DNA of 32,000 nucleotides from Actinomadura macrotermitis. GTDB taxonomy: Bacteria > Actinomycetota > Actinomycetes > Streptosporangiales > Streptosporangiaceae. The position numbers and the translations under genes were made by a program. Shown here in pieces: positions 1,989 to 20,754 of the stretch. The notes beneath the pieces were generated by a model. The model had not been told where the DNA came from and searched no databases. It saw only the letters and a program-made list of their open reading frames with translations. The DNA lies in assembly GCF_009604375.1 (NCBI RefSeq), contig NZ_WEGH01000002.1, positions 364,073 to 396,072 on the forward strand, given 5' to 3'. Positions within the stretch are counted from its first letter, which is position 1. Each line of letters opens with the position of its first letter.

Positions 1989-2011
1989 ACCGGAGACCGA
2001 GAGGAACCCGC

Positions 2012-4182: not shown

Positions 4183-4194
4183 TCCACGCGCCGC

Positions 4195-5061: not shown

Positions 5062-6267
5062 TCAGGCCCAGCGCACGCGGAGCGGCAGCCGCCTGGCGCC
5101 GCAGATCCCCCGCGCGTCGTGGAACTCGGCTCCCGCTGCCACCGACATCTCGCTCCAGCGGGCGAGCATCTTCGCCACGGCGATCCGGACCTCCAGCCGG
5201 GCGAGCGGCGCCCCCAGGCAGAAGTGGATCCCGTGCCCGAAGCTCTGGTGCGCCATGCGCCCGCGGCGGGGATCGAAGCGGTCCGGATCGGGGAAGCGCC
5301 GCTCGTCCCGGTTGGCCGAGGCCAGCCACGCCAGGACGATCCTGCCCGCCGGCACGACGCGGTCGCCGAACCGGACGTCCGCGGTGGTCCGGCGCATGCT
5401 CGGCGCGAGCGGGGTGCGCAGGCGCAGCACCTCCTCGATCACGCCGGGCAGCCCGGCGGGGTCCGCGCGCAGCGCGGCGGCGTCCTCGGGATGCTCGTCC
5501 AGGGTCTGGACGACGTTGCCCAGCAGCGCCGTGGTCGTGATGTGGCCGGCGAGCAGCAGCAGCCCCACGAACCCGACGATCTCCTCGTCCTCCAGGCGCT
5601 CGCCGTCCACCTCGGCGGCCACGAGCGCGCTGGTCAGATCGTCCTCCGGCCGGGCCCGGCGGCGGCGGATGTGCTCCAGGCAGTAGGCGTTCATCTCGCG
5701 CATGACCACCGCCATGGCCTGCGTGCGCCCGGCGTTCGGGACGAAGCCCGTCTGGCTCTCCGGCGCCACCAGGGAGTCGGCCCACCGCCCGAACGTCGGG
5801 CGGTCCCCGGCCGGAATGCCCAGGAGCTCGGCGATGACGGTCACCGGCAGCGGATACGCCAGGGCCGAGACCAGCTCGATCCGCTCCGCGCCGCCCATCG
5901 CGTCCAGCAGCTCGTCGGTGATGGCGGCGATGCGCGGTTCGAGCCGGGCCACCACGCGCGGGGTGAACGCCTTGCTCACCAGCGTGCGCAGCTTGCGGTG
6001 CTGGGGCGGGTCCTTGCGGAGGACATTGCCCTTGATGAAGCGGTCGACGTCCTCCTGAGCCGGCATGAGCGGGCTGAAGTCGGACGAGAAGGTGCCCGCG
6101 TCGTCCAGCACCCGTTCCACGTCGGCATGGCGGAAGACGTGCCATACCCCCGCCTCGGCGTCATGGCTGACGGGTTCGCTCTCGCGCATCCTCCGGAACC
6201 AGGCGAGCACCGACTCGGCGTCGCCGGCCTGGTCGGCCAGCCCGGTCCCCCGCTCGGCGGTGGTCAT
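5062..6267 (-). CDS. cytochrome P450 (atypical I-helix AGHITT), translationally coupled to the carrier-protein/flavin-reductase gene
   Basis: The ATG at 6267-6265 overlaps the upstream TGA (ATGA). ExxR (EEVLR) and the heme loop FGHGIHFCLGAPLARLE are present; 401 aa. Confidence 0.92.
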   Translation of the reverse strand: MTTAERGTGLADQAGDAESVLAWFRRMRESEPVSHDAEAGVWHVFRHADVERVLDDAGTFSSDFSPLMPAQEDVDRFIKGNVLRKDPPQHRKLRTLVSKAFTPRVVARLEPRIAAITDELLDAMGGAERIELVSALAYPLPVTVIAELLGIPAGDRPTFGRWADSLVAPESQTGFVPNAGRTQAMAVVMREMNAYCLEHIRRRRARPEDDLTSALVAAEVDGERLEDEEIVGFVGLLLLAGHITTTALLGNVVQTLDEHPEDAAALRADPAGLPGVIEEVLRLRTPLAPSMRRTTADVRFGDRVVPAGRIVLAWLASANRDERRFPDPDRFDPRRGRMAHQSFGHGIHFCLGAPLARLEVRIAVAKMLARWSEMSVAAGAEFHDARGICGARRLPLRVRWA

Positions 6268-7043
6268 CGCCCTGTCCCTCCCGCCATCCATGCCGAGAAC
6301 CGGCGCCTGCCGTAGAGCAGCGGTTCCCCCGCCAGGATCTCGGCGCCGACCACCTCGCCGAGCACCACCGCATGGTCGCCGACGTCGAGCATCCCGGCCA
6401 CGGCGCACTCGGCCACGGCGAGGGCGTCGGACTCCAGCCACGGAAGCCCCTCCGCCCCGGTAGGCCGCCAGTCGACGTGGGCGAACCGGTCGGCCACGGG
6501 GGAGGCGAAGATCTCCGCGGCCCGGCGGGCCCCGGCGTTCAGCAGGTTGACCGCGAAGCTCTGCCGCGTCGTGATCGCCTCCAGGGTGGTGCTCCCGGCC
6601 TTCAGGCACACCAGCAGGGTCGGCGGTGAGAGGGTGACGCTGCACAACGAGGAACAGGTGGCCCCCCGCGGCAGCATGTCCGCGCCGATGCTCGTCACGA
6701 CCGCCACGCCGGTCGGGAACGCACTCATCAGCGACCGGTAGGCGTCCAGCCCGACATGGCGGCGCCCGGATCCGGCCGGCCCGGAGGCGGCGGGCGACGC
6801 CGCGATCGCGATGGAGCGCAGCGAACTGTAGGCATCGGGCGGGTCGTCCGGATCCCATGCGGTGTGGAACTCCGCCTCCACCCTGTCGAGCAGGGACACC
6901 AGCGTCAGCGAGTCGACGCCGAGGCTCAGGAGCGTCGCGTCGCCGTCCACCGGCAGGTCGGCGGGATGCTCGTCCCAGACCTCTTTGAGTAACGATCGAA
7001 GGCGGTCGAGGACGTGCTCGAGTTCGGCGCCTTTGGTGCTCAT
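6264..7043 (-). CDS. fusion protein: N-terminal acyl/peptidyl carrier domain + C-terminal HpaC/RebF-like flavin reductase domain
   Basis: Residues 1-85 form a carrier domain with the phosphopantetheine motif LSLGVDSLTLVSLLD (Ser45 codon at 6909-6911). An Ala/Ser/Gly/Pro linker follows. Residues ~100-259 match the flavin-reductase-like domain pattern (YRSLMSAFPTGVAVVTS...SSLCSVTLSPPTLLVCL...FAVNLL...DRF...GDHAVVLGEV). ATG at 7043 follows GGAGGAACC. Confidence 0.85.
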   Translation of the reverse strand: MSTKGAELEHVLDRLRSLLKEVWDEHPADLPVDGDATLLSLGVDSLTLVSLLDRVEAEFHTAWDPDDPPDAYSSLRSIAIAASPAASGPAGSGRRHVGLDAYRSLMSAFPTGVAVVTSIGADMLPRGATCSSLCSVTLSPPTLLVCLKAGSTTLEAITTRQSFAVNLLNAGARRAAEIFASPVADRFAHVDWRPTGAEGLPWLESDALAVAECAVAGMLDVGDHAVVLGEVVGAEILAGEPLLYGRRRFSAWMAGGTGR

Positions 7044-7054
7044 GGTTCCTCCTG

Positions 7055-8566
7055 TCACGAGCGGGGACCGGCGAGGCCGGCGGCGTGGCAGGCCGCTTCC
7101 GTGCGAAGGTGCCGCCGGGTCACCTTGCCCGCCGGGTTGCGCGGCAGCTCCCGGACGACCTTGAATCCGACCGGGCGCTTGTACAAGGCGAGCCGCTCGC
7201 GGACCAGCCCCTTGAGCGACGCGACGAACTCCGCGGCCTCGCCCGGGGCCTCGCCGGGGGCGACGACATAGGCGAACGGCAGCTCGCCCCATTCGTCGCT
7301 CGGCACGCCGACGACGCACGCGTCCCGCACTCCGGGATGCTCCAGGAGCACGCGCTCGACCTCCGCGGGGAAGATCTTCTGCCCGCCGCGGATGATCACT
7401 TCCTTCACCCGCCCGGCGAGGTGGACGTACCCGTGCTCGTCCACCGTGCCCAGGTCGCCCGTGCGGACCCAGCCGTCGCGCACGGCCTCCTCGGTGGCGG
7501 CGGAATCGTTCCAGTACCCGCGCATCCGGCCCGGCCCGCACACCCACAGCTCGCCGTCGTCGCGGCTCTCCACGACCGTGCCCATGATCGCCCGGCCGAC
7601 CGAGGCGCCCGCGCCCCGGGGGACCGCCGACGTGTAGTCGTGCTCGGACGGGGCGAGGGTCGCCACCGGCCCGCCGCCCTCGGTGATGCCGTACACCTGG
7701 CGGAATCCGCACCCGAGCGTCGCGTGCGCCTCCAGGAGCAGGGGACGCGGCATCGGCGCCGCCGCGTAGACGACCTCCCGGAGGCTCGGCAGGCTCGCGG
7801 ACGAGCGCTTTGCGGCCTGTAGGACGAACCTCAGCATCTCCGGCACCAGGAACAGGTGCGTCGCCTCCGCCCGGCGGATCGTGGCGAGGCAACCGGGCGG
7901 GCTGAACATCCGCATGAGGACGATGGTCGCGCCGGCGGCCATGTAGACGAGCGGCAGCACCATCGCCCCGTGGGACAAGGGGCCGCAGTGCAGGAACACG
8001 GTGTCGCCGCCGGGATCGACGTCGGCCAGGTAGCCCGTCGCCACCGACCGCAGCGACCGGTGGTCGACGCAGACGCCCTTCGGACGGCCCGTCGTCGCCG
8101 AGGTATGCAGGATGAACATCAGCTCGTCGTCGGGGATGTCGAGCGGCGGCGGCCGGTCCCCGCTCGCGACGGCGTCCCGGTACCGGCCGCTCTCGAACGC
8201 GAGCACGGAGCAGCCGGCCGGGCGGGAGAGCCTGCGCAAAAGCTCCTCTTCACCCGCGATCGCCGAGGTCTCGCATCCCGCGACGATCGCCGCCACCTCG
8301 TCCGGGACGGCGCCGTAGTGGACGGGGACCGCGATCGCCCCCACCTTGCCGAGCGCGAAGTAGGTCTCCAGTACCTCAAGGCGGTTGTGCGAGAGGACCG
8401 CGACCCGGTGGCCGCGTCCGACGCCCATCGCGTGGAACGCGGCGGCCAGGCCGTCGGTCCGCCGGTCCAGTTCCGCGTAGGTGACACGCCGGTCCGCGTC
8501 GATGACCGCGACGCGCTCACCGTGGCGCTGCCGGCCTCGCTCCGATAACCGCGCCATCCAGGCCAT
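7055..8566 (-). CDS. AMP-dependent synthetase/ligase (FadD / acyl-CoA synthetase / FAAL type adenylating enzyme)
   Basis: AMP-binding motifs are present: LHTSATTGRPKGV, YGITEGG, WVRTGDLGTVDEHGYVHLAGRVKEVIIRGGQKIFPAEVE and a C-terminal PRNPAGKV. RBS is GAGGAGGGG. 503 aa. The motifs look like acyl-CoA-ligase type rather than an NRPS A-domain. Confidence 0.9.
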   Translation of the reverse strand: MAWMARLSERGRQRHGERVAVIDADRRVTYAELDRRTDGLAAAFHAMGVGRGHRVAVLSHNRLEVLETYFALGKVGAIAVPVHYGAVPDEVAAIVAGCETSAIAGEEELLRRLSRPAGCSVLAFESGRYRDAVASGDRPPPLDIPDDELMFILHTSATTGRPKGVCVDHRSLRSVATGYLADVDPGGDTVFLHCGPLSHGAMVLPLVYMAAGATIVLMRMFSPPGCLATIRRAEATHLFLVPEMLRFVLQAAKRSSASLPSLREVVYAAAPMPRPLLLEAHATLGCGFRQVYGITEGGGPVATLAPSEHDYTSAVPRGAGASVGRAIMGTVVESRDDGELWVCGPGRMRGYWNDSAATEEAVRDGWVRTGDLGTVDEHGYVHLAGRVKEVIIRGGQKIFPAEVERVLLEHPGVRDACVVGVPSDEWGELPFAYVVAPGEAPGEAAEFVASLKGLVRERLALYKRPVGFKVVRELPRNPAGKVTRRHLRTEAACHAAGLAGPRS

Positions 8567-8594: not shown

Positions 8595-9419
8595 TCAGCC
8601 CGACGCCCGCACCGCGCTCATCGCGATCGTGGTGTAGCGCATGGTGAAGGTGCCGCCCACCGCGTCGATGGCCTCGCCGATGCCCGCCTGCACCTCGTGC
8701 ACCTTGGCCGCCGGGTACTGGCCGTGGTCGCCGTGGGTGGGCAGCTGGTCCACCCACTCGTCGCGGGTGTAGCTCTTCTCCCAGGCGAAGCGCCACTCCT
8801 CCGGTTCGCCGAACGCGCCGGCCTCCCGCATCCCGTCCGCGGCCTTGCCGCACAGCATCACGTAGCCGTCCATGGCCTTCGCCGTCCACTGGCGGGCGAC
8901 GAGCGAGTCGGGCAGCAGCCGCCGGTAGACCTCGCCGAAGGACCGCAGCAGTTCCGGCGGCGGCGTCTCGGCGTTCCAGAACACCGCCAGCCGCCCGCCG
9001 GGCCGCAGCACCTGCGCCGCCTTCGCCGCCCCGGCGGCCGCGTCCAGCCAGTGCCAGCTCTGCCCGGAGACGACCGCGTCGAAAGTGCGGCCGGACGGCT
9101 CCCAGGTCTCGAAGGTCGCCACTTCGGCCGCCAGCCCGCGGCGCCGGGCGAACTCGGCCATCCGCGCGTCGGGCTCGACCCCGAGCACCGTGCAGCCGGC
9201 CGCCTGGAAGAGCCGGCTGGAGATGCCGGTCCCGCAGCCGACGTCGACGACGTCGAGACCGGTCCGGTTCGCGGTGATCCGGTCCACCAGGGCCGCGGGA
9301 TAACTGGGCCGTGTGCGGTCGTAGCGCTCGGGGTCCGACCCGAACGCCTCGGCCACCTGCCGGTGCCGATGGAGTTCCTTCTCGGAGAGGGGGGTGCGGG
9401 CGGAAGGTGTAGTGGGCAT
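8595..9419 (-). CDS. class I SAM-dependent methyltransferase
   Basis: Motif I VVDVGCGTGISSRLF and post-I LGVEPD are present, with a Methyltransf_11-like layout. The start ATG sits exactly 6 nt after a TAAAAT -10 box, so the transcript looks leaderless. 274 aa. Confidence 0.85.
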   Translation of the reverse strand: MPTTPSARTPLSEKELHRHRQVAEAFGSDPERYDRTRPSYPAALVDRITANRTGLDVVDVGCGTGISSRLFQAAGCTVLGVEPDARMAEFARRRGLAAEVATFETWEPSGRTFDAVVSGQSWHWLDAAAGAAKAAQVLRPGGRLAVFWNAETPPPELLRSFGEVYRRLLPDSLVARQWTAKAMDGYVMLCGKAADGMREAGAFGEPEEWRFAWEKSYTRDEWVDQLPTHGDHGQYPAAKVHEVQAGIGEAIDAVGGTFTMRYTTIAMSAVRASG

Positions 9420-9455
9420 GTGCCCATTTTAAGTGGGCACACGCCCACTCGTCAA
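9411..9455 (-). promoter_or_regulatory. near-consensus leaderless promoter with two embedded palindromes
   Basis: The minus strand reads TTGACG-AGTGGGCGTGTGCCCACT-TAAAAT-GGGCAC-ATG. The -35 is at 9450-9455, the 18-nt spacer is a 7-bp-arm palindrome (9432-9449), and the -10 is at 9426-9431. The ATG follows 6 nt later. A second palindrome TGGGCA-nn-TGCCCA (9413-9426) spans the start codon. Confidence 0.6.
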
Positions 9456-11035: not shown

Positions 11036-11151
11036 CACGGCTCCCCTTTCTTCATGCGATTCCACCAATGAGTCACAGTGCCGGAGGGAGCCGGTCGCAA
11101 TGAACCCCCAATAGTGGGGGCTGCCCAAATTCGAGTTCACGCGCTAGGGGT

Positions 11152-11185: not shown

Positions 11186-12436
11186 ATGACCGATCCGTAT
11201 ATGGAAGAAGCCAGGCGATTGGACGCGGCCGATTCTCTTTCGGGTTTCCGGGACAGGTTCGTGATCACCGATCCCGGCATCGCCTATCTGGACGGGAACT
11301 CACTGGGCCGGCTGCCGCGGTCCACCCGCGACCGGCTGCGCGCGCTCGTCGACGAATGGGGCGCGGACCTGATCGACGGCTGGCGGCGGTGGCTGCCGGC
11401 CGGCCGCGAGGCGGGCGACCTCGTCGCACGGATCGTCGGCGCCGAGCCGGGCGAGGTCGTGCTGTCCGACTCGACCGGCGTCAACCTGTACAAGCTGGCC
11501 GTCGCAGCGCTGGACGCCCGGCCGGGACGCGATGTGATCGTCGCCGCCGCCGACGACTTCCCCACCGACCGGTACATCCTGGACGGCATCGCCGCGGCGC
11601 GCGGGCTCAAGGTGCGGTGGCTCGGCTCCGGCCTCGACGACGCCGTGCGACCGGCCGACGTGGAGGCCGCGCTGGACGCCCGGGTCGCGCTGGTGTGCCT
11701 GTCCCACGTGGCGTACCGGTCCGGCGCGGTGGCCGACCTCGCCGGGGTGACGAAAGCGGCGCACCGGCACGGCGCGCTGGTGCTGTGGGACCTGTGCCAC
11801 TCCGCCGGCGCCGTCCAGGTCGGGCTGTCCGCCGCCAACGCGGACCTCGCGGTCGGCTGCACCTACAAGTATCTGAACGGCGGGCCGGGCGCACCCGCCT
11901 TCCTGTACGTGCGGCGGAAGCTCCAGCCCCTGCTGCGGCAGCCGATCTGGGGCTGGTTCGGGCAGACCGACCAGTTCGCCATGGGGCCGGACTACCGGCC
12001 GGTGCCGGCGATCGAACGCTTCCTCGTCGGCACTCCCCCGGTGCTGGCCGGCCATGCGGCGCTGGAAGGGGCGCGCCTGACGGCCGAGGCCGGGATCGAG
12101 GCCATCGCGGCCAAGGCGCGGAGCCTGACCGGGTACGCGCTGCGGCTGGCCGACGCCTGGCTGGCACCGCTCGGGTTCCGGGTCGCCTCGCCTCGCGACG
12201 GGCGGCGGCGCGGCGCCCACCTGACCTTGCACCATCCCTCCGCCTGGCCCGTGTGCCAGGCGGCGAAATCGGCCGGGGTGATCCCGGACTACCGTGCACC
12301 CCAGCGGCTCCGGCTCGGCTTTCCGCCGCTGTACACCCGCCACATCGACGTGCACAGCGGATTGTCGCGGCTGCGCGACGTCGCGGCGACCGGCCGGTAC
12401 AGGGACTTCCCTGACGACCCGAAGGGACTGACATGA
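11186..12436 (+). CDS. kynU: kynureninase (PLP-dependent, aminotransferase class V fold)
   Basis: The N-terminus has FRDRFVI...IYLDGNSLG. The PLP-lysine motif GCTYKYLNGGPGAPAF is the kynureninase signature. 416 aa. There is no RBS, and the ATG lies 6 nt after a TACTGT -10 box. Confidence 0.9.
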   Translation: MTDPYMEEARRLDAADSLSGFRDRFVITDPGIAYLDGNSLGRLPRSTRDRLRALVDEWGADLIDGWRRWLPAGREAGDLVARIVGAEPGEVVLSDSTGVNLYKLAVAALDARPGRDVIVAAADDFPTDRYILDGIAAARGLKVRWLGSGLDDAVRPADVEAALDARVALVCLSHVAYRSGAVADLAGVTKAAHRHGALVLWDLCHSAGAVQVGLSAANADLAVGCTYKYLNGGPGAPAFLYVRRKLQPLLRQPIWGWFGQTDQFAMGPDYRPVPAIERFLVGTPPVLAGHAALEGARLTAEAGIEAIAAKARSLTGYALRLADAWLAPLGFRVASPRDGRRRGAHLTLHHPSAWPVCQAAKSAGVIPDYRAPQRLRLGFPPLYTRHIDVHSGLSRLRDVAATGRYRDFPDDPKGLT

Positions 12437-13245
12437 CGACCACGGGCGACGGCGTCCAGCCGGAGGGCTACCCCGCCCGGCTGGCCCGGCTGACCGACGT
12501 GCCCGACGGCGCGTACCGGACCGTCCGGTACGGACCCGCGCCGGAGCAGTTCGGCGAGTACTGGCCGGGGGGCGACGGGGCGGCCGTGGTCCTGGTCCAC
12601 GGCGGCTACTGGCGCAAGCGCTACCGGCTGGACCTGATGCGCCTGCTCGCCGCCGATCTCAACGCCCGCGGGTTCGCGGTGTGGAACATCGAGTACCGGC
12701 GGATGGACATGGCGGGCGGCGGCTGGCCCGGCACCTTCGACGACGTCTCCGCCGCGCTGGACGCGGTGACCGGCCTCGACGGCGGGGCGGTCGATCCCGC
12801 CCGTGTGGGCCTGGTCGGCCACTCGGCCGGAGGACATCTCGCGCTGTGGGCGGCCCACCGGGCGGCCGGGCCAGGGCGGGTCTCCCCCGCCGCGGTGGTG
12901 TCGCTCGCGGGGGTGTGCGACCTGGTGACGGCCGCGCGGCTGGGGCTGAGCAACGGCGCGGTGGCGGAGCTGCTCGGGGGCGGGCCGGACGACCTGCCGG
13001 AGGTGTACCGGCGAGCCGACCCGATGGCGCTGGTCCCGCTCGGTGTGCCGCAACTGGTGGTGCACGGCACCGCCGACGAGGACGTGCCCATCGAGCTGAG
13101 CCGGCGCTACGCCGAGGCGGCGGGCCGCGAGGCGGTGCTGCTCACCCTGCCGGACGCCGACCATATGGACGTGATCACTCCGGGCACGGCGGCCTGGGCG
13201 CGGATCGCGGAGGAACTGGGCCGGCTCCTGCCGCCCGGCCGGTAA
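12433..13245 (+). CDS. alpha/beta hydrolase, arylformamidase (AFMID/Bna7-type kynurenine formamidase) candidate
   Basis: ATGA overlap with the kynU stop. Motifs present are HGGYW, nucleophile elbow GHSAGGH, and Asp (GTADEDV) and His (DADHMDV) triad positions. 270 aa. Confidence 0.7.
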   Translation: MTTTGDGVQPEGYPARLARLTDVPDGAYRTVRYGPAPEQFGEYWPGGDGAAVVLVHGGYWRKRYRLDLMRLLAADLNARGFAVWNIEYRRMDMAGGGWPGTFDDVSAALDAVTGLDGGAVDPARVGLVGHSAGGHLALWAAHRAAGPGRVSPAAVVSLAGVCDLVTAARLGLSNGAVAELLGGGPDDLPEVYRRADPMALVPLGVPQLVVHGTADEDVPIELSRRYAEAAGREAVLLTLPDADHMDVITPGTAAWARIAEELGRLLPPGR

Positions 13246-13276
13246 GGCGCCCGGGCCGGCCGGGCCGGCGGACGTC

Positions 13277-13310
13277 CGCCTCGGACGGGTTCGCGAACCC
13301 GTCCGAGGCG
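13277..13310. terminator. perfect 34-nt palindrome, likely bidirectional terminator between convergent operons
   Basis: CGCCTCGGACGGGTTCG|CGAACCCGTCCGAGGCG has 17-bp arms. It lies between the formamidase stop (13245) and the halogenase stop (13322). Confidence 0.65.
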
Positions 13311-13321
13311 CCGCCGCCGCG

Positions 13322-14920
13322 TCAGCGGCCGTGAATGGCCCGCAGCAGCTCGTAGTTGCTGGGCAGCGTCTCGGCATACTCCCGCTGGCGGCGCTTGACC
13401 TCATCGAACAGCGGTTCCGCCGCGCGCACCGACTCCGGCTTGTAGGCCAGTGCCGGAAGCGGCCGGTCGGGCAGGAATCCCATCCCGGTGAAGATGCAGT
13501 AATAGCTGCCGTTGGTCCAGAAGTTACGGAACTCCGTTTCGAAGTTGCCGTAGTAGTCGCTCTCGCCCGTGATCGGCTGGTTGATCGCGAGCCCGGCCTT
13601 GTACATCGCCATCTTCTCCTGGATGGCGTCGGACAGCTTGAGTTCTTTGTTGGCCTTCCAGAACTCGGTGTCGATGCGCGGCGAGCAGTAGAAGTGGGCC
13701 TGCAGGAAGTCCCGCGTGTCGTCGAACATCACCTGGATCTCGCGGTTGAAGCGGTCCACGAGGGCCGGGTCGAAGTCGCCGTCCGGGATGAGCTTCGCCA
13801 GCCAGTACAGCGCGGCGTAGGTGAAGTAGATGCCGGTGGACTCCAGCGGCTCGACGAAGCACGAGGCGAGTCCGACGCTGACGCAGTTCTTCACCCAGGC
13901 CCGGCGGTTGCGGCCGACGCGGAACCTGACGTGGTTGAACGTCTCCTTCTCAGGGTCCAGGCCCCACATCCGGCTGAACTCCTCGGTCGCCTCGTCCTGG
14001 GAGGCGAACCGGCTGGAGTACACGTAGCCGGTCCCGAACCGGTCCAGCATCGGGATCTTCCAGGTCCAGCCGGACTTCATCGCGATGGACGAGGTGTACG
14101 GCTCGACCCCGAGGCGCTCGTCGTCGTTGGGGATCGCCGTGGCCACCGCGCGGTCGCACAGCAGGTGGTCGCTCATGTCCACGAAGGGCTCGCCCATGGC
14201 CTTGTTGATGAGCAGGCCGCGGAACCCCGAGCAGTCCACGAACAGGTCGCCTTCCAGCACCCTGCCACTGGCGGTGCGCAGGCCGGTGATGTGGCCGCGC
14301 TCGTCCAGCAGCGCCTCCTGCATCGTGTCCTGGACATGCTCGACGCCCTGGCGCCCGGTGGCGAAGCGGCAGAGGAAGTCGGCGACGAGCTGGGCGTCGA
14401 AGTGCCACGCGTACCGGGTGGCACGGCGGCCGTCCAGCCACCGGGGCCCCCGCTTGGCGTCCATCATGGCCGGTTCCGCCATGCAGGCGTAGTCGAAGGG
14501 CTCGTCGGTCTTCCCGGCGTGGTGGCGCTGGAACCAGTAGTGCGACAGCGGGATCTGGTCCTCGTCCGGCAGCAGGCCGAACGGGTGGTGGAACTGGTCG
14601 GGGCGTCCGTCAAGGTCGCGCGGGGTGCTCTGGGACTCACCGGGGCTGCGCCAGTTGATGAACTTGACCGCCAGCTTGAAGGCGGCGTTGCATTCGCGCA
14701 TCCACTCGTCCTCGGGGATGCCGAGGTAGTCGAAGAACGCCCGCTGCAGGTTCGGCACGGTCGCCTCGCCGACGCCGATGCGCGGGATCGAAGGGGCCTC
14801 CAGCACCGTGATGTCCACGGTGCCCTGTAAGGCCTTGCCCAGATAGGACGCGGCCATCCAGCCGGCCGTCCCCCCGCCGAGAATGACGATCTTCTTGATG
14901 CGGTTGCCGAAGGCGTCCAT
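13322..14920 (-). CDS. flavin-dependent tryptophan halogenase, RebH/PrnA-like (Trp 7-halogenase clade)
   Basis: [19 protein letters not shown] (GxGxxG), catalytic Lys context [21 protein letters not shown] (WxWxIP) and [11 protein letters not shown] (catalytic Glu) are present. Near-colinear similarity along the whole length to my recollection of RebH and PrnA. 532 aa. Confidence 0.93.
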
Positions 14921-14978
14921 GGTTTCCCTGCCCTTCTCCGTGTTTCACGTTCGCGGTGCGGATCGCTGGACCGCGGGC

Positions 14979-15728
14979 TCACACCCTCGCCCGCAGATCC
15001 CAGAGTTCGGGGTAGAAGCGCTTGGCCGTGGTGGCGTGCAGATAGGCCACCCCGGCGGAACCGCCGGTGCCGCGCCGCCGCCCGATGAGGCGCTCCACCA
15101 TGGGGACGTGCCGGGCCCGCCAGAGCCCGAAGCCCTCGTCGTGCTCGATCATCGCCTCGGCCAGCCGGACCAGCCCGTCGCCGGGCACCTCCGCCCGGTA
15201 CAGCTCCACCAGGTCGGGATCGCCCTGCCGCGTGCGCAGCCGCCGGAACTCGTCCCACAGGGACGGTTCGGCCATCCGGCGCTCCAGCCGGGTCCGCTCG
15301 GGCTCCGACATGCGCGTCGTGGTCAGGTAGTCCGGATCCTTCAGCCCGGACAGGAACTCGATCTCGCGGAACTGGACCGACTGCAGGCCGCTGGAGCCCG
15401 CCAGCGTCCCGCGCAGCGCGGCGAAGCCCCCCGGGCTGATCGTCTCCAGCGTGGCGACCTGCGCGACCAGGATCTCCTCCACCGCGCGGACGCGCCGCAG
15501 GCAGTACACCGCGCGCGGGATGTCGTCGGCCGCCACCGCCGCGACGGCCGCGTCCAGCTCATAAAGGACGATCTTGAATTGCAGCTCGTACACCTGGTGC
15601 ACGGTGAAGAAGAAATGCGCGTCGTGCGCCTCCGCCGACTCCCGCTGCAAGGACAGCAGCGTGTCCAGCCGCAGGAAGTCCCCGTAGCGCGGTTCCCACG
15701 ACGCCGGCTCCGCCGGCGCCCGCGACAT
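14979..15728 (-). CDS. kynA: tryptophan 2,3-dioxygenase (heme-dependent)
   Basis: Distal His region FFTVHQVYELQFK. Proximal His and the GTGGS motif are in WRARHVPMVERLIGRRRGTGGSAGVAYL. The ATG shares 1 nt with the TauD stop (TGATG). 249 aa. Confidence 0.88.
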   Translation of the reverse strand: MSRAPAEPASWEPRYGDFLRLDTLLSLQRESAEAHDAHFFFTVHQVYELQFKIVLYELDAAVAAVAADDIPRAVYCLRRVRAVEEILVAQVATLETISPGGFAALRGTLAGSSGLQSVQFREIEFLSGLKDPDYLTTTRMSEPERTRLERRMAEPSLWDEFRRLRTRQGDPDLVELYRAEVPGDGLVRLAEAMIEHDEGFGLWRARHVPMVERLIGRRRGTGGSAGVAYLHATTAKRFYPELWDLRARV

Positions 15729-16594
15729 CAGTAGGACTCCTTCGCGTTCACGCGGGCCGGCGCGTAACGCTCGCCCGGCCTGGGCCGGAAGTGCTCCCAC
15801 CGGGGCCGGTCGCCGTCGGGGCTGTCGCCGAGGACGACGACGCGCAGTCCCGTCCGGCGCTCGGCGTAGTCGTCGACGGCATAGTGCTGCGTGGCCCTGT
15901 TGTCCCAGATCGCCACGTCGCCGTCCCGCCACCGGTGGCGGCAGGTGAACTCCGGGGACGTGGAGAACTCGCAGAGGAACTGCAGGAGCGCGTCGCTCTC
16001 GTTGCGGCTGAGCTGCGCGATGTGCGAGGTGTGGGCCCGGTTGACGAACAGGGACCGCCGCCCGGTCTCCGGATGCACCCGGACGACGGGGTGCTCCGCC
16101 CTGCTGTCCAGCCCCGGAATGTGGATGGCGTGGATCGCGGTGAGGCCGTCGAGCAGCTCGCGCAGAGGCGCCGACAGGGCCTCGTACGCCAGGTACTGGT
16201 TCGACCACATGGTGTCGCCGCCCGTGCCGGGACTGCGCACGATCTGCAGGATGGAGCCGATGGGCGGGTTCGGCGAGTAGGTCATGTCGGTGTGCCAGAT
16301 CGGGATCTTGCCGTCCTGCTCCGAGTCGATGATCTGAATCTCCGGATGCCCCTCCAGATGCGGCAGGTAGGGGTGGACCTCCAGTTCCCCGAAGCGCCGG
16401 CCGAACGCCACGCGCGACCCGGGCGGCCAGTCGTGCTGGCCCCGGATGAAGATCACCAGGTATCTCAGCAGCAGCCGGCGCAGCTCCGCGAACTCCTCAT
16501 CGGTGATCTCCGCGAGCCGCACGCCGCGGACCTCGGCGCCCAGCGCGCCCGACAGCGGCCGGACATCGAACGCCGTCGTCATTGACTCCGCCAT
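15728..16594 (-). CDS. TauD/TfdA-family Fe(II)/2-oxoglutarate-dependent dioxygenase
   Basis: HxD facial triad in [10 protein letters not shown] and the distal His in [11 protein letters not shown]. The N-terminus [19 protein letters not shown] is typical of the family. An alternative ATG exists at 16582. 288 aa. Confidence 0.88.
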
Positions 16595-16641: not shown

Positions 16642-17931
16642 TCACTCCGGCGCGAGCGAGGGCATCGCCCTGCGATCGGGCAGCACGCCCAGCTGGAAGA
16701 GCCTGTCCAGCGGCCCGAGGCGGCGCATGCCGAGGCCCGACATGTTGTAGGTCGTCAGATAGCTGAGCCGCGCGCTCCTGGCCGTGCCGGACAGCAGCCG
16801 CCGGCCCAGCAGCCGGCCGCCGCGCGACGTGGAGGTCATCATGCGCGCGGCGTTGTGGCTCATCGCGTGGACGTCGCCGATCCTGCCCATCCGCTGGTCC
16901 TCGTAGCCGCGCAGCGCCCCGTCCACCGCCGCGCCGTCACCAAAGTCGATGCCGGAGAGCCGGGCGGCGAGCGCGTGCGCGTCGCCGATGGCCGTGTTCA
17001 TCCCCTGGGCGGCCAGGGGATGCACGCTGTGCGCGGCCTCACCGATCAGGGCGATGCCGGGCCGCGCCAGCGACGCGGCCACGTACCGCCAGACCTTCAG
17101 CAGCTGGCGGCGGTCCAGGCCGCCGGGGATCGCGGACGCGAGCGGGCCGAGCGCGGGCACCTGACCGACGAGTTCCGCGGTCCACCGCCGCAGCCGGTCC
17201 GCCCCACCTCCCCTCATCTCGTCCGCCGTCACCTGGACATAGACGCGTGTCGCCCCCTCCGGCAGCGGATAGACCATGACCAGCCCGCGGTCGGTGACAT
17301 AGGCGGACACCTCGCCGGCGACCGGCGGCGGGCACGGCAGCTCGAAGGTCAGGAGCCGGTGACCGTAGGCGACGGGCTCCGCCGCGATCCCCGCCGACCT
17401 GCGCAGCCGCGAGGACATGCCGTCCGCCGCCACGACGAGCCGCGCGCCGATGTCGCGCGTGGCGCCGCCCTCGGTGACCCGCACTCCGGCGACACGGCCG
17501 CCGGGGTCCCTGATGACGTCGTCCACCAGGACACCGCGCCGCCACCGCACCGTCGGGCCCAGCGACTCCCCGAGGCACTCCAGGATCGTCGTGTAGTGGT
17601 GGGACAGCATCCAGGACCGCTCGCCGCCGAGCGCCCCGAAGTCCATGGCCAGCAGTTCGGCGCCGTCCGCCCTCCTGGCGACGAGCCGGTCGATGCGGAC
17701 CGCCCGCCTGGCCTCCAGCGTGCGGAGCACGTCCCACCCCTGCAGGATGTCCAGCGAGCCGGGCTGGAGGACCTCGCCCTTCGCGATCGGGGGCTGCCGG
17801 CGCTTCTTGTCCAGCAGGACCACGTCCAGCCCGAGCCTGCCGAGGGCGTTGGCCGCCGCCAGGCCCGCGACGCCTGATCCGCAGATCACGACGTCGGCGT
17901 CCAGGGGTTGCGGCGCGTATCCCGTTGTCAT
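16642..17931 (-). CDS. FAD-dependent monooxygenase (group A), squalene-epoxidase-like signature; candidate terminal-olefin epoxidase
   Basis: Motifs: GxGxxG (VVICGSGVAGLAAA), AKGEVLQPGS (compare squalene epoxidase GELLQPGG), DG motif AADGMSSRLRR, and GD motif GEAAHSVHPLAAQGMNTAIGDA. ATGA overlap with the cyclase stop. 429 aa. Confidence 0.8.
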   Translation of the reverse strand: MTTGYAPQPLDADVVICGSGVAGLAAANALGRLGLDVVLLDKKRRQPPIAKGEVLQPGSLDILQGWDVLRTLEARRAVRIDRLVARRADGAELLAMDFGALGGERSWMLSHHYTTILECLGESLGPTVRWRRGVLVDDVIRDPGGRVAGVRVTEGGATRDIGARLVVAADGMSSRLRRSAGIAAEPVAYGHRLLTFELPCPPPVAGEVSAYVTDRGLVMVYPLPEGATRVYVQVTADEMRGGGADRLRRWTAELVGQVPALGPLASAIPGGLDRRQLLKVWRYVAASLARPGIALIGEAAHSVHPLAAQGMNTAIGDAHALAARLSGIDFGDGAAVDGALRGYEDQRMGRIGDVHAMSHNAARMMTSTSRGGRLLGRRLLSGTARSARLSYLTTYNMSGLGMRRLGPLDRLFQLGVLPDRRAMPSLAPE

Positions 17932-19655
17932 GACGCCCTCTGTTTCTCGAACGGGCCGTCCGCCGCCGCGGCCCGGTAGCTCCCGAGCGCCTTGAGGGCG
18001 AGCCCGTTGACGATCAGACCGTCCACGTAGTAGGCGAGATCGCGGATGTGCATGCAGACCGGGCTCGCCTTCCACAGGCCGTCGCTCTGCTGGGCGGAGA
18101 CGATCCATCCGGCCGCGCGCCGCAGGCGCGGGTCGTCCGCCGGTACGCCGCAGGCGAGCAGGCCCCGCAGGGCCCACGCGGTCTCCTCCACCGTCCCCGC
18201 CGAGGCGTCGTCGCCGGGCGTGCCGGTCTCACCCGGCCCCCACGACCCGTCCGCGAGCTGGGCGTCCAGCAGGGCCTCGCGGGCGCGCACGGCGACCGGG
18301 TGGCCGGCGAGCCCGGTACGGCCGAAGGCCACGAGCGCCATGGACGTCCCCGGAGTGAGCCCGCGGTACCAGAGGGCCTCATAGGTGCCGTCGGCACGCT
18401 GGTGGGCGAGCAGCCAGTCCAGCGCCTTGCCGATTCCCGGGTCCTGCCGGGAGGCGCCGCCGTCGAGCAGGACTTCGACGGACTGCGCGGTCACGTAGGG
18501 GCACGGGCCGTCGTTCGCGAGCGTGGTGTCGGGCACGAAGGTCCCCCACGAGCCCGTGCGGTCCTGCCGCGACTCCAGCCAGCGCAGCCCGCGCCGCAGG
18601 CTCTCCGCCCCGTCCTCCCCGCCGCCTTCCCGGCCGGCCGCCACGAGGGCGGACAGCACATTGGCGCTGTCGAGGATGTTCGGCCACCCCCGGGGCCCTT
18701 CCCAGCCCCAGCCGCCGGGGGGCGCGTCGAAGATCGCGAACGCCTCGTCCTGCTGGCAGCCGCGCAGCCACCGCCTCGCGCGCGCCAGCCGGGGGTCGGC
18801 GGCGAACCCGGCATCCGCCAGGCCGCGCGCGATGTAGGAACCGCCGATCAGATCGAGTCCCTGCATGATGTGCCAGGAGCCGTCCGCGTGCACGTTCGAC
18901 CGGAGGTAGCCGACGGCCTCGGAGATCAGGGCGTCCGGCGCGCCGGCGCAGCACAGGCCGATGCACACCACCGCGACCAGCCAGTTGTCCCCGCCGTAGC
19001 CGCCGCGATCGTTCTCGCCGCGTTCCACCTCCGCGAGCGCGCGGAGCCCGGCCGATCTGGCCGGCCGGCTCAGCAGGCGCTGGAAGCCCTTCGGCGGGCT
19101 GTGCCGCGCCTGGACGAACGCCATGGCGACGAAAGGCGCCACCCGGAAGGACAGCCGGGCACGCCAGAACCGCCGGGGGAGCATGAGCAGCTCCAGCGGG
19201 ATGCGCCGTGCCCCCCGGATGTCCCCGAGGCCCGCCAGCATGAGGAAGGTCGCGGCCATGTGGGCCATACCGGGATCGGTGAACGCCCGCATCCCACCCT
19301 GCCGGTCCAGCAGGTCCGTCGCGCGCCGCACCGGTTCCCGCGACGCCTGCGGATCCAGCAGGTGCAGGGCCGACGCCGCGACCACGGTCGGCACCGGCTG
19401 CGTGGGGGCTCCGGCGACCCCGCCCCACCCGCCGTCGGCGTTCTGGGCGCCCGCCAGCCACCGGACGCCCCGCTCGACCAGGTCGCGCGAGCGCTCGGGA
19501 TCGGCCAGGTGCAGGGCGACGACCGCGCCGGCCGTGCCCAGTACGGCGGTGGGCCGCCGGTTCGGCCAGGATCCGTCCGGGCGCTGCAGCGCGAACAGGG
19601 CCTCGGCGGCCCGCACGACCGAACCCTCGATCCGACTGTTCATGGTCGCGCACAT
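17928..19655 (-). CDS. squalene-hopene-cyclase-fold (alpha/alpha toroid) class II terpene cyclase-like protein, DxDD motif absent
   Basis: At least 5 QW-type repeats: ALQRPDGSW, WLAGAQNADGGWG, WLESRQDRTGSWG, WLLAHQRADGTY, WIVSAQQSDGLW. The C-terminal half is colinear with SHC. The position aligned to SHC YPDVDDTA reads WPNILDSA. Start 19655 was chosen for GAGGG at -9; the 19760 alternative would overlap ubiA by 70 nt. Confidence 0.8.
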   Translation of the reverse strand: MCATMNSRIEGSVVRAAEALFALQRPDGSWPNRRPTAVLGTAGAVVALHLADPERSRDLVERGVRWLAGAQNADGGWGGVAGAPTQPVPTVVAASALHLLDPQASREPVRRATDLLDRQGGMRAFTDPGMAHMAATFLMLAGLGDIRGARRIPLELLMLPRRFWRARLSFRVAPFVAMAFVQARHSPPKGFQRLLSRPARSAGLRALAEVERGENDRGGYGGDNWLVAVVCIGLCCAGAPDALISEAVGYLRSNVHADGSWHIMQGLDLIGGSYIARGLADAGFAADPRLARARRWLRGCQQDEAFAIFDAPPGGWGWEGPRGWPNILDSANVLSALVAAGREGGGEDGAESLRRGLRWLESRQDRTGSWGTFVPDTTLANDGPCPYVTAQSVEVLLDGGASRQDPGIGKALDWLLAHQRADGTYEALWYRGLTPGTSMALVAFGRTGLAGHPVAVRAREALLDAQLADGSWGPGETGTPGDDASAGTVEETAWALRGLLACGVPADDPRLRRAAGWIVSAQQSDGLWKASPVCMHIRDLAYYVDGLIVNGLALKALGSYRAAAADGPFEKQRAS

Positions 19656-19689: not shown

Positions 19690-20754
19690 TCAACGCAGAC
19701 GCTCCGCCCGTGCCGGCGTGAACGACAGGACCGCCCCCGCGCCGTCCGGCCCGGCGGCACCGGGCGTGTGCGCGCGGTCGCCCGGCGGGAACTCGTGCGC
19801 GGAACGCATCGCCCGCTGGGTGCCGAGGGTGACCGCGAGCATCGGCAGGAGGAGCGCGATCGCCACCGGCAAGCCGAGGCCCGGCACGAGCAGAGCGTCC
19901 GCGAGCACGAGCCGTTCGGCGACGAGCACCTCGTGCGACCGCAGGGCGGCGCGCCACGGCGGGACGCGCCCGGGGACGAAGAGCACCCTGAACGCGTGGC
20001 AGCCGAGCGCCGCGGCGACCAGGGTCACGGCGAGCGACGTCCACCGGCCGCCCGGCACCACCAGGAGTCCCGCCACCGCCGCCGCGACGGCCACGCCGTA
20101 GAGCGCGACGGCGGCCCACGCCCCCGCCCGGACGCCGTGACGCACGGCGAAGGTGGCATAGCCGCCCTCGCGGTCCCCGGCGACGTCGCGCAGCGTCCCG
20201 ACCAGGTTCGAGGCGGCGTCGTGCGCCGAGAACACCAGCACGAACGGAAGCAGCCCGATCGGCGGCGCGGACGTGGCCATCATCGCGCCGAACAGGAGCG
20301 CGCCACCGGTGAGGGCGCCGCGCACGAGGTTGCCCCACAGTCCCCGCGCCTTGAAGAAGCCGTTGTAGGCGACCGCGCCTCCGATGCCGCCCGCCAAGAT
20401 CAGGAGCGTGCGCCAGTTGACGATCAGCGCGACCGCGCAGGCCCCCGCCGCGAGGATCACCCCGCAGGCGAGCGCGGTCGAGGGCCGCAACTGCCCCGAC
20501 GGGATGGGCCGCTGCGGTTTCCCGATCGCGTCGAGGTCGCGGTCGAGGTAGTCGCCCAGGTAGTGCGCCGCGATCCAGACCAGGGTCGGGACCAGCCACG
20601 CGACGAGCGGGCCCGCCGCCTGCCGCCCGCCGCCGGCGATCTCGCGGGTCAGGCTCTCGCCGGCCAGCCCCACCAGGCCGACGTACCAGAGGGTGTAGGG
20701 CCGCCATGTCCGCAGGTGGGCGGTGAGCGTCCTTCGGAACCGGTGGCCGCTCAT
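19690..20754 (-). CDS. UbiA-superfamily membrane prenyltransferase (ChlG/BchG/DGGGP-synthase-like Asp-rich motifs)
   Basis: First Asp-rich motif is HYLGDYLDRDLDAIGKPQRPIPSGQL and the second is LRDVAGDREGG. The protein has multiple hydrophobic TM segments. The ATG abuts the upstream TGA (TGAATG). 354 aa. Confidence 0.88.
   Translation of the reverse strand: MSGHRFRRTLTAHLRTWRPYTLWYVGLVGLAGESLTREIAGGGRQAAGPLVAWLVPTLVWIAAHYLGDYLDRDLDAIGKPQRPIPSGQLRPSTALACGVILAAGACAVALIVNWRTLLILAGGIGGAVAYNGFFKARGLWGNLVRGALTGGALLFGAMMATSAPPIGLLPFVLVFSAHDAASNLVGTLRDVAGDREGGYATFAVRHGVRAGAWAAVALYGVAVAAAVAGLLVVPGGRWTSLAVTLVAAALGCHAFRVLFVPGRVPPWRAALRSHEVLVAERLVLADALLVPGLGLPVAIALLLPMLAVTLGTQRAMRSAHEFPPGDRAHTPGAAGPDGAGAVLSFTPARAERLR

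What the first reader, a model, noticed from the sequence alone, without database searches (positions are those of the whole stretch)
11186..15728. A Trp 7-halogenase sits where kynurenine 3-monooxygenase would act: predicted 3-chlorokynurenine / 3-chloroanthranilate route
Seen: TDO, an AFMID-type formamidase and kynureninase are all present, together with a RebH/PrnA-clade halogenase. No KMO-like gene is evident in the window. Established: C7 of Trp becomes C3 of kynurenine and of anthranilate, which is exactly the carbon KMO hydroxylates. Also established: 3-hydroxyanthranilate from the kynurenine pathway is the UbiA-family (COQ-2) prenyl acceptor in animal rhodoquinone biosynthesis. Inference: the cluster may make the chloro isostere (2-amino-3-chlorobenzoate) and feed it either to the adjacent UbiA enzyme or to the adenylating enzyme/carrier protein. 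Regiochemistry is inferred only from family resemblance.
Basis: partly seen in the sequence, partly recalled or inferred. Interest (0 to 1): 0.75.

Follow-up and report, generated by a model that had tools for sequence, protein, structure and literature searches.

The report
Chloroanthranilate supply genes, tiancilactone-type cluster
Four adjacent genes in a termite-gut Actinomadura most likely turn tryptophan into 4-chloroanthranilate, the acyl decoration of a tiancilactone-type terpenoid antibiotic; this is a variant of a known pathway, not a chlorine stand-in for kynurenine 3-monooxygenase.

Summary
Window 11186-15728 encodes a kynureninase, an alpha/beta-hydrolase (formamidase candidate), a flavin-dependent Trp halogenase and a TDO, and there is no KMO. 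The window comes from Actinomadura macrotermitis RB68.

1. The halogenase is a 6-halogenase by every available test. Its best solved relatives are Thal and BorH. It carries all three experimentally validated 6-type markers ([19 protein letters not shown]) and none of the 7-type markers. It groups with Thal in a distance tree. The predicted route is therefore 6-Cl-Trp to 4-Cl-kynurenine to 4-chloroanthranilate, so the KMO-carbon idea does not hold.
2. The adjacent UbiA, epoxidase, cyclase and polyprenyl synthase are 66-74% identical to the core genes of the tiancilactone (tnl) cluster of Streptomyces sp. CB03234/CB03238. In the related phenalinolactone pathway the UbiA enzyme (PlaT3) joins GGPP to a C3 keto acid, not to an aromatic. 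Tiancilactones are already known to carry chloroanthranilate.
3. The adenylating enzyme and carrier protein are tnl orthologues (69%), so they are the likely acceptor.

What is new is modest. The halogenase (38%) and TDO (31-33%) are not orthologous to those of tnl, whose halogenase is 5-type. The cluster also adds its own formamidase candidate, kynureninase and deoxysugar genes.

Halogenase plus kynurenine-pathway routes to 3-, 4- and 5-chloroanthranilate are all published. Nothing here has been tested experimentally.

The parts
11186..12436 (+). Kynureninase (416 aa); predicted to cleave 4-Cl-kynurenine to 4-chloroanthranilate and Ala
   Evidence: Pfam KYNU_C and Aminotran_5. TIGR01814 equivalog 248 vs cut-off 246.4. 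1QZ9 296 bits with the PLP Lys aligned. 90% identical in A. litoris. No counterpart in the 20 kb of tnl examined.
12433..13245 (+). Alpha/beta-hydrolase (270 aa); candidate N-formylkynurenine formamidase, translationally coupled to the kynureninase
   Evidence: Pfam BD-FAE and Abhydrolase_3. HGGYW and GHSAG motifs are visible in the sequence. TDO, hydrolase and kynureninase are contiguous in Nonomuraea L030 and L046. The function is assigned by context only; no solved formamidase was hit.
13322..14920 (-). Flavin-dependent Trp halogenase (532 aa); predicted 6-halogenase of the Thal/BorH group
   Evidence: Thal 916, BorH 890, RebH 854, PrnA 697 bits. Markers [19 protein letters not shown] are 3/3 six-type. 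V52, V82, G469, S470 are Thal-like. Groups with Thal in the NJ tree.
14979..15728 (-). Tryptophan 2,3-dioxygenase (249 aa); its start overlaps the TauD stop by 1 nt
   Evidence: Pfam Trp_dioxygenase. Bacterial TDOs 2nox and 2nw7, with both His residues aligned. Only 31-33% identical to the tnl TDO.
6264..7043 (-). Carrier protein fused to a flavin reductase (supplies FADH2 to the halogenase; the PCP carries the aryl acid)
   Evidence: Pfam PP-binding and Flavin_Reduct in one ORF. These are separate adjacent genes in CB03238. 69-73% identical to the tnl proteins.
7055..8566 (-). ANL-family adenylating enzyme (503 aa); predicted chloroanthranilate activation
   Evidence: Pfam AMP-binding. 69% identical to the tnl ligase. 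Aryl/acyl-CoA-ligase-like in the PDB.
8595..9419 (-). SAM methyltransferase (orthologue in tnl, 57%)
4195..5040 (-). Second alpha/beta-hydrolase, conserved with tnl (62%), where it lies next to the TDO; role open (acyl transfer or formamidase)
15728..16594 (-). Fe(II)/2OG dioxygenase (TauD family); tnl orthologue, 85%
16642..17931 (-). FAD epoxidase (PlaT1/TnlT1 type); not a KMO
   Evidence: Pfam FAD_binding_3 and SE. 72% identical to the tnl protein. No KMO among PDB hits.
17928..19655 (-). Non-canonical class II meroterpenoid cyclase (TnlT2 orthologue)
   Evidence: 74% identical to the CB03238 protein P0129, and 100% to the A. macrotermitis protein P0121. No DxDD; NILDSAN vs NFLDSAN in TnlT2.
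19690..20754 (-). UbiA prenyltransferase (PlaT3/TnlT3 type)
   Evidence: Pfam UbiA. 70% identical to the tnl protein. NCBIfam best matches are not UbiA/COQ2.
20755..21789 (-). Polyprenyl diphosphate synthase (PlaT4/TnlT4 type)
21786..22610 (-). FAA-hydrolase-family protein; tnl orthologue, 66-67%
22648..23829 (-). Cytochrome P450; tnl orthologue, 70%
28226..29464 (+). PapA5-type condensation/acyltransferase; candidate for transfer of the aryl group from the PCP. Absent from the tnl regions examined
29497..32000 (+). Deoxysugar genes (MycE-like O-methyltransferase, dTDP-sugar 3,5-epimerase, GFO oxidoreductase) running off the window; absent from the tnl regions examined

Best explanation
The four genes are the aryl-acid supply module of a tiancilactone-family meroterpenoid gene cluster in Actinomadura macrotermitis RB68.

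Proposed steps (all inferred from sequence, none assayed):
1. The flavin reductase domain, fused here to the carrier protein, provides FADH2. The halogenase chlorinates free L-Trp at C6.
2. The TDO opens the indole ring to give N-formyl-4-chlorokynurenine.
3. The alpha/beta-hydrolase removes the formyl group.
4. The kynureninase releases 4-chloroanthranilate.
5. The ANL ligase activates the acid and loads it on the carrier protein.
6. The acid is esterified to a perhydrophenanthrene diterpenoid. That core is built by the polyprenyl synthase, UbiA, FAD epoxidase and non-canonical cyclase cassette, then tailored by TauD, P450s and methyltransferases. Here it is probably also glycosylated.

Relative to the published Streptomyces tnl cluster, the halogenase and TDO have been replaced by non-orthologous enzymes. 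A dedicated formamidase candidate and a kynureninase have been added.
For: - Gene identities.
- Source organism: the cyclase is 100% identical to an A. macrotermitis protein. The exact halogenase is found in SRR11566452, the RB68 read set.
- Orthology to tnl of the tiancilactone producers CB03238 and CB03234: P450 70%, FAH 67%, PPS 66-68%, UbiA 70%, cyclase 74%, epoxidase 72%, TauD 85%, ligase 69%, PCP/FR 69-73%, P450 68%, hydrolase 62%, TetR 65%, MT 57%, in the same order.
- Tiancilactones carry chloroanthranilate and a gamma-butyrolactone (PMC10301674).
- In the phenalinolactone pathway, PlaT3 acts on GGPP with a C3 acid before epoxidation and cyclisation (PMC11317874).
- The cyclase lacks DxDD and has the TnlT2-type motif.
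- C6 selectivity: PDB ranking, five switch positions, three validated markers (PMC8269204), NJ tree.
- Non-orthology: halogenase 38%, TDO 31-33%. The tnl halogenase is in the SttH/AbeH/PyrH clade with 5-type markers.
- The slot between the hydrolase and TetR that holds TDO and halogenase in tnl is a 12-bp gap here (4182-4195).
Against: - There is no experimental datum for this cluster or its product.
- Regioselectivity is predicted from markers and phylogeny, not assayed. One validated 6-halogenase (ThnH) deviates at one marker, so the markers are not absolute.
- The TDO scores below NCBIfam's equivalog cut-off (203 vs 391).
- The formamidase role rests on context only. No solved kynurenine formamidase was hit, and the structure model was unusable.
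- The ligase's substrate cannot be read from its sequence.
- I could not read the primary tiancilactone paper. The chlorine position in tiancilactones and the authors' own gene assignments are therefore unverified here.
- The acyltransferase is not identified.
Confidence: 0.72

Rival explanations
1. The enzyme is a Trp 7-halogenase, so the module makes 3-chlorokynurenine and 3-chloroanthranilate, chlorinating the carbon that KMO would hydroxylate.
For: The enzyme belongs to the broad clade that includes RebH and PrnA. One of the five Thal/RebH switch positions is RebH-like (T360). A 7-halogenase route to 3-chloroanthranilate exists in aglomycin biosynthesis.
Against: T360 is the majority residue among sequences carrying 6-type markers. 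All three validated markers are 6-type and none is 7-type. Thal and BorH outrank RebH and PrnA. No natural sequence with two or more 7-type markers exceeds about 71% identity, while 6-type relatives reach 92%.
Confidence: 0.1
2. The chloroanthranilate is the prenyl acceptor of the adjacent UbiA enzyme, as in COQ-2 and rhodoquinone or in aurachin and benzastatin. The product would be a prenylated chloro-aminobenzoate that is then epoxidised and cyclised.
For: UbiA-family enzymes commonly prenylate small aromatic acids (PMC11317874 discussion). The genes are neighbours.
Against: The UbiA gene is 70% identical to TnlT3 and sits in the conserved T4-T3-T2-T1 cassette. Reconstitution of the four pla genes alone gave C23 products with a C3 amino/keto-acid tail, so no aromatic acceptor is needed. 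NCBIfam matches are to DGGGP and chlorophyll-synthase-like models, not UbiA/COQ2. A ligase and PCP orthologous to tnl are present to handle the aryl acid.
Confidence: 0.04
3. Chlorination happens late, on kynurenine, anthranilate or the carrier-bound aryl group rather than on free Trp. The TDO, hydrolase and kynureninase would then process unchlorinated substrates.
For: BorH and related enzymes halogenate kynurenine and anthranilamide in vitro (PMC11840605). The carrier protein is fused to the flavin reductase. In mycemycin one RebH-like halogenase acts late.
Against: All Trp-binding motifs of bona fide Trp halogenases are intact. The cluster keeps its own TDO, divergent from housekeeping-type equivalogs. 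This fits adaptation to a chlorinated substrate, as reported for AglC. PCP and reductase are separate genes in CB03238.
Confidence: 0.1
4. The pathway stops at, or branches from, 4-chlorokynurenine, for example to a chloro-quinoline as in the agelolines. The kynureninase homologue would have another role.
For: 4-Cl-kynurenine is an end product in taromycin and gausemycin. The tnl regions examined encode no kynureninase.
Against: The protein passes the kynureninase equivalog threshold and aligns over its whole length with 1QZ9. It is translationally coupled to the hydrolase and conserved in A. litoris. The ligase is of the aryl/acyl-CoA type, not an amino-acid A domain. The family's known products carry chloroanthranilate.
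Confidence: 0.05

Closest known systems
Tiancilactone (tnl) biosynthetic gene cluster, Streptomyces sp. CB03234 / CB03238 (Dong, Rudolf, Shen et al., ChemBioChem 2018)
   Same: The core cassette (polyprenyl synthase, UbiA, non-canonical cyclase, FAD epoxidase) is in the same order. So are TauD, the FAA-hydrolase, P450s, the ANL ligase, PCP, flavin reductase, an alpha/beta-hydrolase, TetR and a methyltransferase. Identities are 57-85%. Both clusters carry a Trp halogenase and a TDO, consistent with a chloroanthranilate decoration.
   Different: The halogenase (38%) and TDO (31-33%) are non-orthologous and sit elsewhere in the cluster. The tnl halogenase has 5-type markers and this one has 6-type, so a different chloro-regioisomer is predicted. 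This cluster adds a kynureninase, a BD-FAE hydrolase, a PapA-type acyltransferase, a dual methyltransferase, a ferredoxin and deoxysugar genes. PCP and reductase are fused.
Phenalinolactone (pla), brasilicardin (bra) and atolypene (ato) clusters: the PlaT1-T4 family of bacterial perhydrophenanthrene meroterpenoids
   Same: The same four-gene logic of prenylation, then epoxidation, then cyclisation. The cyclase lacks DxDD. Phenalinolactone and brasilicardin also carry a peripheral acyl group and a sugar.
   Different: Those acyl groups are 5-methylpyrrole-2-carboxylate or 3-hydroxybenzoate, not a Trp-derived chloroanthranilate. I made no direct sequence comparison with pla, bra or ato.
Aglomycin AglE/C/D/F; mycemycin MymM/C/D/Q; taromycin Tar13-16; ageloline D
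   Same: All use a Trp halogenase followed by TDO, a formamidase and, except in taromycin, a kynureninase. The products are 3-Cl-anthranilate, 5-Cl-anthranilate, 4-Cl-kynurenine and 4-Cl-anthranilate respectively.
   Different: Those are NRPS, dibenzoxazepinone or shunt contexts. Here the module serves a meroterpenoid. The 4-chloro route would use a Thal/BorH-group (A2) halogenase, whereas taromycin uses Tar14 of group B2.
Thal (ThdH) and BorH, Trp 6-halogenases of group A2
   Same: About 72% identity to Thal. Identical Trp1, Trp2 and Trp4 marker motifs. GxGxxG, WxWxIP and the catalytic Lys and Glu are present.
   Different: T rather than S at Thal position 360, which is the majority state in the clade. 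The pathway context also differs: thienodolin and borregomycin versus the kynurenine pathway.

Membership tests
Tiancilactone/phenalinolactone-type (PlaT1-T4) meroterpenoid cluster | Polyprenyl synthase, UbiA prenyltransferase, class II cyclase and flavin epoxidase together in one operon | tested here: met
   Genes 21789 to 16642 on the minus strand in the order T4-T3-T2-T1. The order is the same in L082 and L083.
Tiancilactone/phenalinolactone-type (PlaT1-T4) meroterpenoid cluster | Cyclase lacks DxDD and has the xxx(E/D)(T/S)xE-type motif | tested here: met
   No DxDD in the protein. The aligned motif is NILDSAN, as in TnlT2 (NFLDSAN). The last position is N rather than E in the tnl subgroup; distant relatives read TLESAE.
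Tiancilactone/phenalinolactone-type (PlaT1-T4) meroterpenoid cluster | Orthology to the genes of a proven producer | tested here: met
   66-85% identity to CB03238 and CB03234 proteins across 13 genes.
Tiancilactone/phenalinolactone-type (PlaT1-T4) meroterpenoid cluster | Product is a perhydrophenanthrene diterpenoid bearing chloroanthranilate and a gamma-butyrolactone | not testable with these tools
   Needs isolation and NMR from A. macrotermitis RB68 or a heterologous host.
Trp 6-halogenase, group A2 (Thal, BorH, FmoD, AORI_5336) | Marker motifs Trp1 ATVPNL, Trp2 HPFGL, Trp4 ...FWTNGSYY | tested here: met
   All three are present exactly, against Table 1 of PMC8269204.
Trp 6-halogenase, group A2 (Thal, BorH, FmoD, AORI_5336) | Closest to characterised 6-halogenases of this group | tested here: met
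   Thal 916 and BorH 890 bits, above RebH 854, LooH 791 and PrnA 697. In the NJ tree the enclosing clade of 26 contains Thal.
Trp 6-halogenase, group A2 (Thal, BorH, FmoD, AORI_5336) | Chlorinates free L-Trp at C6 | not testable with these tools
   Needs an enzyme assay with NMR or standards.
   0 of 3. At the five Thal-to-RebH switch positions the protein reads V, V, T, G, S against I, I, T, S, N.
Kynurenine pathway enzymes | TDO: family match and heme-site histidines | tested here: met
   Pfam 149.5 vs cut-off 34.9. Distal and proximal His align with 2nox. Below the NCBIfam equivalog cut-off (203 vs 391), so it is divergent.
Kynurenine pathway enzymes | Kynureninase: equivalog model and PLP lysine | tested here: met
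   TIGR01814 248 vs 246.4. 1QZ9 alignment over residues 10-397 with the KYLNGGPG lysine.
Kynurenine pathway enzymes | AFMID-type (alpha/beta-hydrolase) kynurenine formamidase | tested here: inconclusive
   It is an alpha/beta-hydrolase with HGG-type and GxSxG motifs, the fold class of animal formamidases and not of zinc KynB. No solved formamidase was hit at E <= 1e-3. The AF2 model had pLDDT 48.8.
Kynurenine 3-monooxygenase (KMO) | A class-A flavin monooxygenase that resembles KMO more than other subfamilies | tested here: not met
   The only FAD_binding_3 protein is the TnlT1 orthologue. Its PDB hits are 2x3n, squalene monooxygenase and PHBH, with no KMO.
UbiA/COQ2 aromatic-acid polyprenyltransferase | Matches 4-hydroxybenzoate polyprenyltransferase models, or is orthologous to an aromatic prenyltransferase | tested here: not met
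   Best NCBIfam matches are DGGGP-synthase and chlorophyll-synthase-like, all below their cut-offs. The protein is 70% identical to TnlT3.

The most novel reading that the evidence does not exclude
The tiancilactone family changes its aryl decoration by swapping whole supply modules. In Actinomadura (and, judging by shared contigs, Polymorphospora), the Streptomyces-type 5-halogenase and TDO pair has been replaced. In its place is an unrelated, self-sufficient cassette of a 6-halogenase, TDO, formamidase and kynureninase, which also occurs without terpene genes in Nonomuraea. The product would be a new, probably glycosylated, 4-chloroanthraniloyl tiancilactone analogue. Its TDO and kynureninase would be naturally tuned to 6-Cl-Trp and 4-Cl-kynurenine.
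Probability: 0.55. Interest if true: 0.4.

Novelty: new variant of a known kind. Interest (0 to 1): 0.3.

Why it matters
If correct, this is a concrete genome-mining lead. A termite-symbiont Actinomadura should make an undescribed, probably glycosylated, relative of the tiancilactone antibiotics carrying a different chloro-regioisomer.

It would also be a natural example of regiodivergent halogenation achieved by module replacement within one cluster family. It would supply a matched enzyme set (Thal-type 6-halogenase, TDO, formamidase, kynureninase) for making 4-chlorokynurenine, an antidepressant prodrug, or 4-chloroanthranilate.

It does not open a new biochemical principle. Halogenated-Trp kynurenine routes to all three chloroanthranilate isomers are already described, and the KMO and rhodoquinone analogy does not apply.

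Tried and rejected
- The + strand ORF 14883-15734 as a gene: rejected. It has no Pfam hit, and codon-position GC favours the minus-strand TDO.
- The FAD monooxygenase as a hidden KMO: rejected.
- A parsimony argument that both clusters must chlorinate the same carbon: dropped once the tnl halogenase showed 5-type markers.
- Reading the primary tiancilactone paper (PMC6258353, PMID and DOI), Moritzer 2019 (PMC6378962) and the taromycin paper (PMC6555645): none is held. The chlorine position in tiancilactones therefore remains unverified. My prediction of 5-chloro for tnl rests on the halogenase markers only.
- AlphaFold2 of the formamidase candidate without an alignment: mean pLDDT 48.8, so no fold search was run.
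- Extending past the right edge of the window: only a 19.6-kb Logan contig is indexed for those proteins, so no glycosyltransferase could be looked for.
- Residue-level alignments to RebH, BorH and PrnA could not be printed, because the five alignment slots were taken by Thal variants. Published motif tables were used instead.
- P0087 turned out to be the engineered Thal-RebH5 sequence, not wild-type Thal. This was allowed for in the signature and tree counts.
- The substrate of the ANL ligase could not be inferred from PDB or NCBIfam matches.
- A literature search for the HGGYW motif found nothing.

Full report
**Gene map.** The window is about 72% G+C, so I called genes by codon-position GC and Pfam. 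The flagged interval holds four genes.
- A kynureninase at 11186-12436 (+).
- An alpha/beta-hydrolase at 12433-13245 (+), overlapping the kynureninase stop by 4 nt.
- A Trp halogenase at 13322-14920 (-).
- A TDO at 14979-15728 (-). The TDO is on the minus strand. The overlapping + strand ORF has no family hit.

The rest of the window is one large biosynthetic cluster:
- P450s, a beta-lactamase-fold protein, TetR and a second alpha/beta-hydrolase;
- a carrier protein fused to a flavin reductase, an ANL adenylating enzyme and a methyltransferase;
- a Na+/H+ exchanger and a DUF6059 protein;
- downstream of the TDO on the same strand: TauD, an FAD monooxygenase, a squalene-hopene-cyclase-like protein, UbiA, a polyprenyl synthase, an FAA-hydrolase-family protein and a P450;
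- then a dual methyltransferase, a P450, a ferredoxin, a PapA-type condensation enzyme and deoxysugar genes running off the right edge.

**Enzyme assignments.**
- The kynureninase passes the NCBIfam equivalog threshold (248 vs 246.4). It aligns end to end with P. fluorescens kynureninase, including the PLP lysine.
- The TDO aligns with bacterial TDOs, with both heme-site histidines in place. It is divergent, scoring below the NCBIfam cut-off.
- The hydrolase has HGG-type and GxSxG motifs. It belongs to the alpha/beta-hydrolase class used by animal kynurenine formamidases, not the zinc KynB class. It hit no solved formamidase, and the structure model was too poor to use. Its role therefore rests on context.
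- The only flavin monooxygenase of the KMO superfamily resembles squalene monooxygenase and an uncharacterised monooxygenase (2x3n), not KMO. It proved to be the cluster's epoxidase.

**Regiochemistry.**
- Against solved structures, the halogenase scores highest with the 6-halogenases Thal (916 bits) and BorH (890). RebH (854), LooH (791) and PrnA (697) score lower.
- Comparing wild-type Thal with the engineered Thal-RebH5 in the printed alignments exposes five switch positions. The window protein reads V, V, T, G, S, against Thal V, V, S, G, S and RebH-type I, I, T, S, N. T at the third position is the majority state in the clade.
- PMC8269204 gives three markers, validated by swapping them, that separate 6- from 7-halogenases in this group. 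The 6-type forms are ATVPNL, HPFGL and FWTNGSYY. The 7-type forms are ATIP(S/N)L, H(L/S)FG and ...NYY. The window protein has all three 6-type forms.
- In a neighbour-joining tree of 201 homologues, it lies in a 13-member clade that is uniformly 6-type. The next enclosing clade contains Thal.

Because Trp C6 becomes C4 of kynurenine and anthranilate (established atom mapping, as in taromycin), the predicted product is 4-chloroanthranilate, not the 3-chloro isomer.

**What the cluster is.**
- The cyclase is 100% identical to a protein of Actinomadura macrotermitis. It is 74% identical to the cyclase of Streptomyces sp. CB03238, a tiancilactone producer.
- The exact halogenase occurs in read set SRR11566452. 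The species description lists that accession as the raw data of strain RB68.
- I fetched the tnl loci of CB03238 and CB03234. Thirteen genes are orthologous at 57-85% identity and in the same order.
- Tiancilactones are phenalinolactone analogues decorated with chloroanthranilate and a gamma-butyrolactone.
- In the related phenalinolactone pathway, the UbiA enzyme acts first, joining GGPP to a C3 alpha-keto acid, before epoxidation and cyclisation.
- The window's cyclase lacks DxDD and carries the TnlT2-type motif.
- The UbiA neighbour is therefore not a COQ-2-like acceptor for the aryl acid. The ligase and carrier protein, both orthologous to tnl, are the likely destination.

**What differs from tnl.**
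- The window's halogenase is only 38% identical to the tnl halogenase. The tnl enzyme belongs to the SttH/Tar14/AbeH/PyrH clade and carries 5-type markers: ATFSTV, HPFER and YFHGFEPYS.
- The TDOs share 31-33% identity.
- In tnl the TDO and halogenase sit between the alpha/beta-hydrolase and TetR. In the window that slot is a 12-bp gap, and a different TDO and halogenase pair follows TauD.
- The tnl regions I examined (about 20 kb around each anchor gene) encode no kynureninase and no BD-FAE hydrolase. The window has both.
- The closest relatives of the window's TDO, hydrolase and kynureninase (52-59% identity), together with a 6-type halogenase, lie in two Nonomuraea loci that have a ligase but no terpene genes. 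This suggests a portable cassette.
- The same variant cluster is present in A. litoris (76-94% identity). It is probably also in Polymorphospora, where a halogenase and a cyclase homologue share one contig.

**Prior art.** Halogenase plus kynurenine-pathway routes to chloroanthranilates are published for:
- mycemycin, 5-chloro;
- tiancilactone;
- ageloline D, which is 4-chloroanthranilic acid itself.

**Verdict.** The finding is a new variant of a known kind: a useful genome-mining lead and a tidy case of module replacement, but not a new principle. Everything mechanistic is inferred from sequence and nothing was assayed. I could not read the primary tiancilactone paper, so the chlorine position in the published compounds is unverified.

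Noticed in passing
window 6264-7043 (-): The carrier protein and the flavin reductase are fused in one ORF here and in A. litoris. In Streptomyces sp. CB03238 they are separate adjacent genes, and in CB03234 only the PCP was called. The reason for the fusion is unknown.
   Followed up: partly
window 9452-10765 (-); loci L003-L081: A Na+/H+-exchanger-family gene lies within 3 kb of the halogenase in 34 of 80 Thal/RebH-clade halogenase loci, at a median of about 0.9 kb. It is also present in the mycemycin and tnl clusters. A. litoris lacks it at this position. The recurrent pairing suggests a role linked to halogenation, such as ion supply or export.
   Followed up: partly
L030 1473-11587 and L046 (Nonomuraea sp. 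NPDC048826 and NPDC050786): A compact locus with an ANL ligase, TDO, hydrolase, kynureninase, a beta-lactamase-fold protein and a 6-type halogenase, with no terpene or NRPS genes nearby. It may make a small 4-chloroanthranilate-derived product.
   Followed up: partly
L067 and L070 (Embleya); L056 and L057 (Sorangium): Halogenases with partly 7-type signatures (V-I-T-T-N; I-I/V-T-G-N) sit next to kynureninase-like genes (32-41% identity). In Embleya there are also large ORFs nearby.
   Followed up: no
P0132 (Polymorphospora sp. NPDC051019): A 926-aa protein fuses a UbiA domain to the cyclase. It lies on the same 75.9-kb contig as a halogenase that is 87% identical to the window's (P0005).
   Followed up: no
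window 24058-26640 (+): An 860-aa protein with two methyltransferase regions, one of the AprA MT2-like family. It is conserved in A. litoris (80%) but absent from the tnl regions examined. Its role is unknown.
   Followed up: no
window 21786-22610 (-): An FAA-hydrolase-family protein is conserved at the head of the terpene operon in both this cluster and tnl (66-67%). It may generate the C3 keto-acid acceptor of the UbiA enzyme, whose origin the phenalinolactone paper calls unknown.
   Followed up: no
L082 16311-17741 (Streptomyces sp. CB03238): A PAP2/vanadium-chloroperoxidase-like gene lies a few kb from the tnl core. It has no counterpart in the window.
   Followed up: no
window 1982-3466 (+): A beta-lactamase-fold protein is conserved in A. 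litoris (85%) but absent from the tnl regions examined. Some members of this fold act as acyltransferases (from memory, for example LovD), so it is a further candidate for aryl transfer.
   Followed up: no
window 10775-11140 (-): A small DUF6059 ORF lies divergent from the kynureninase and is conserved in A. litoris (65%). Codon-position GC support is weaker than for its neighbours (third-position GC 0.81).
   Followed up: no
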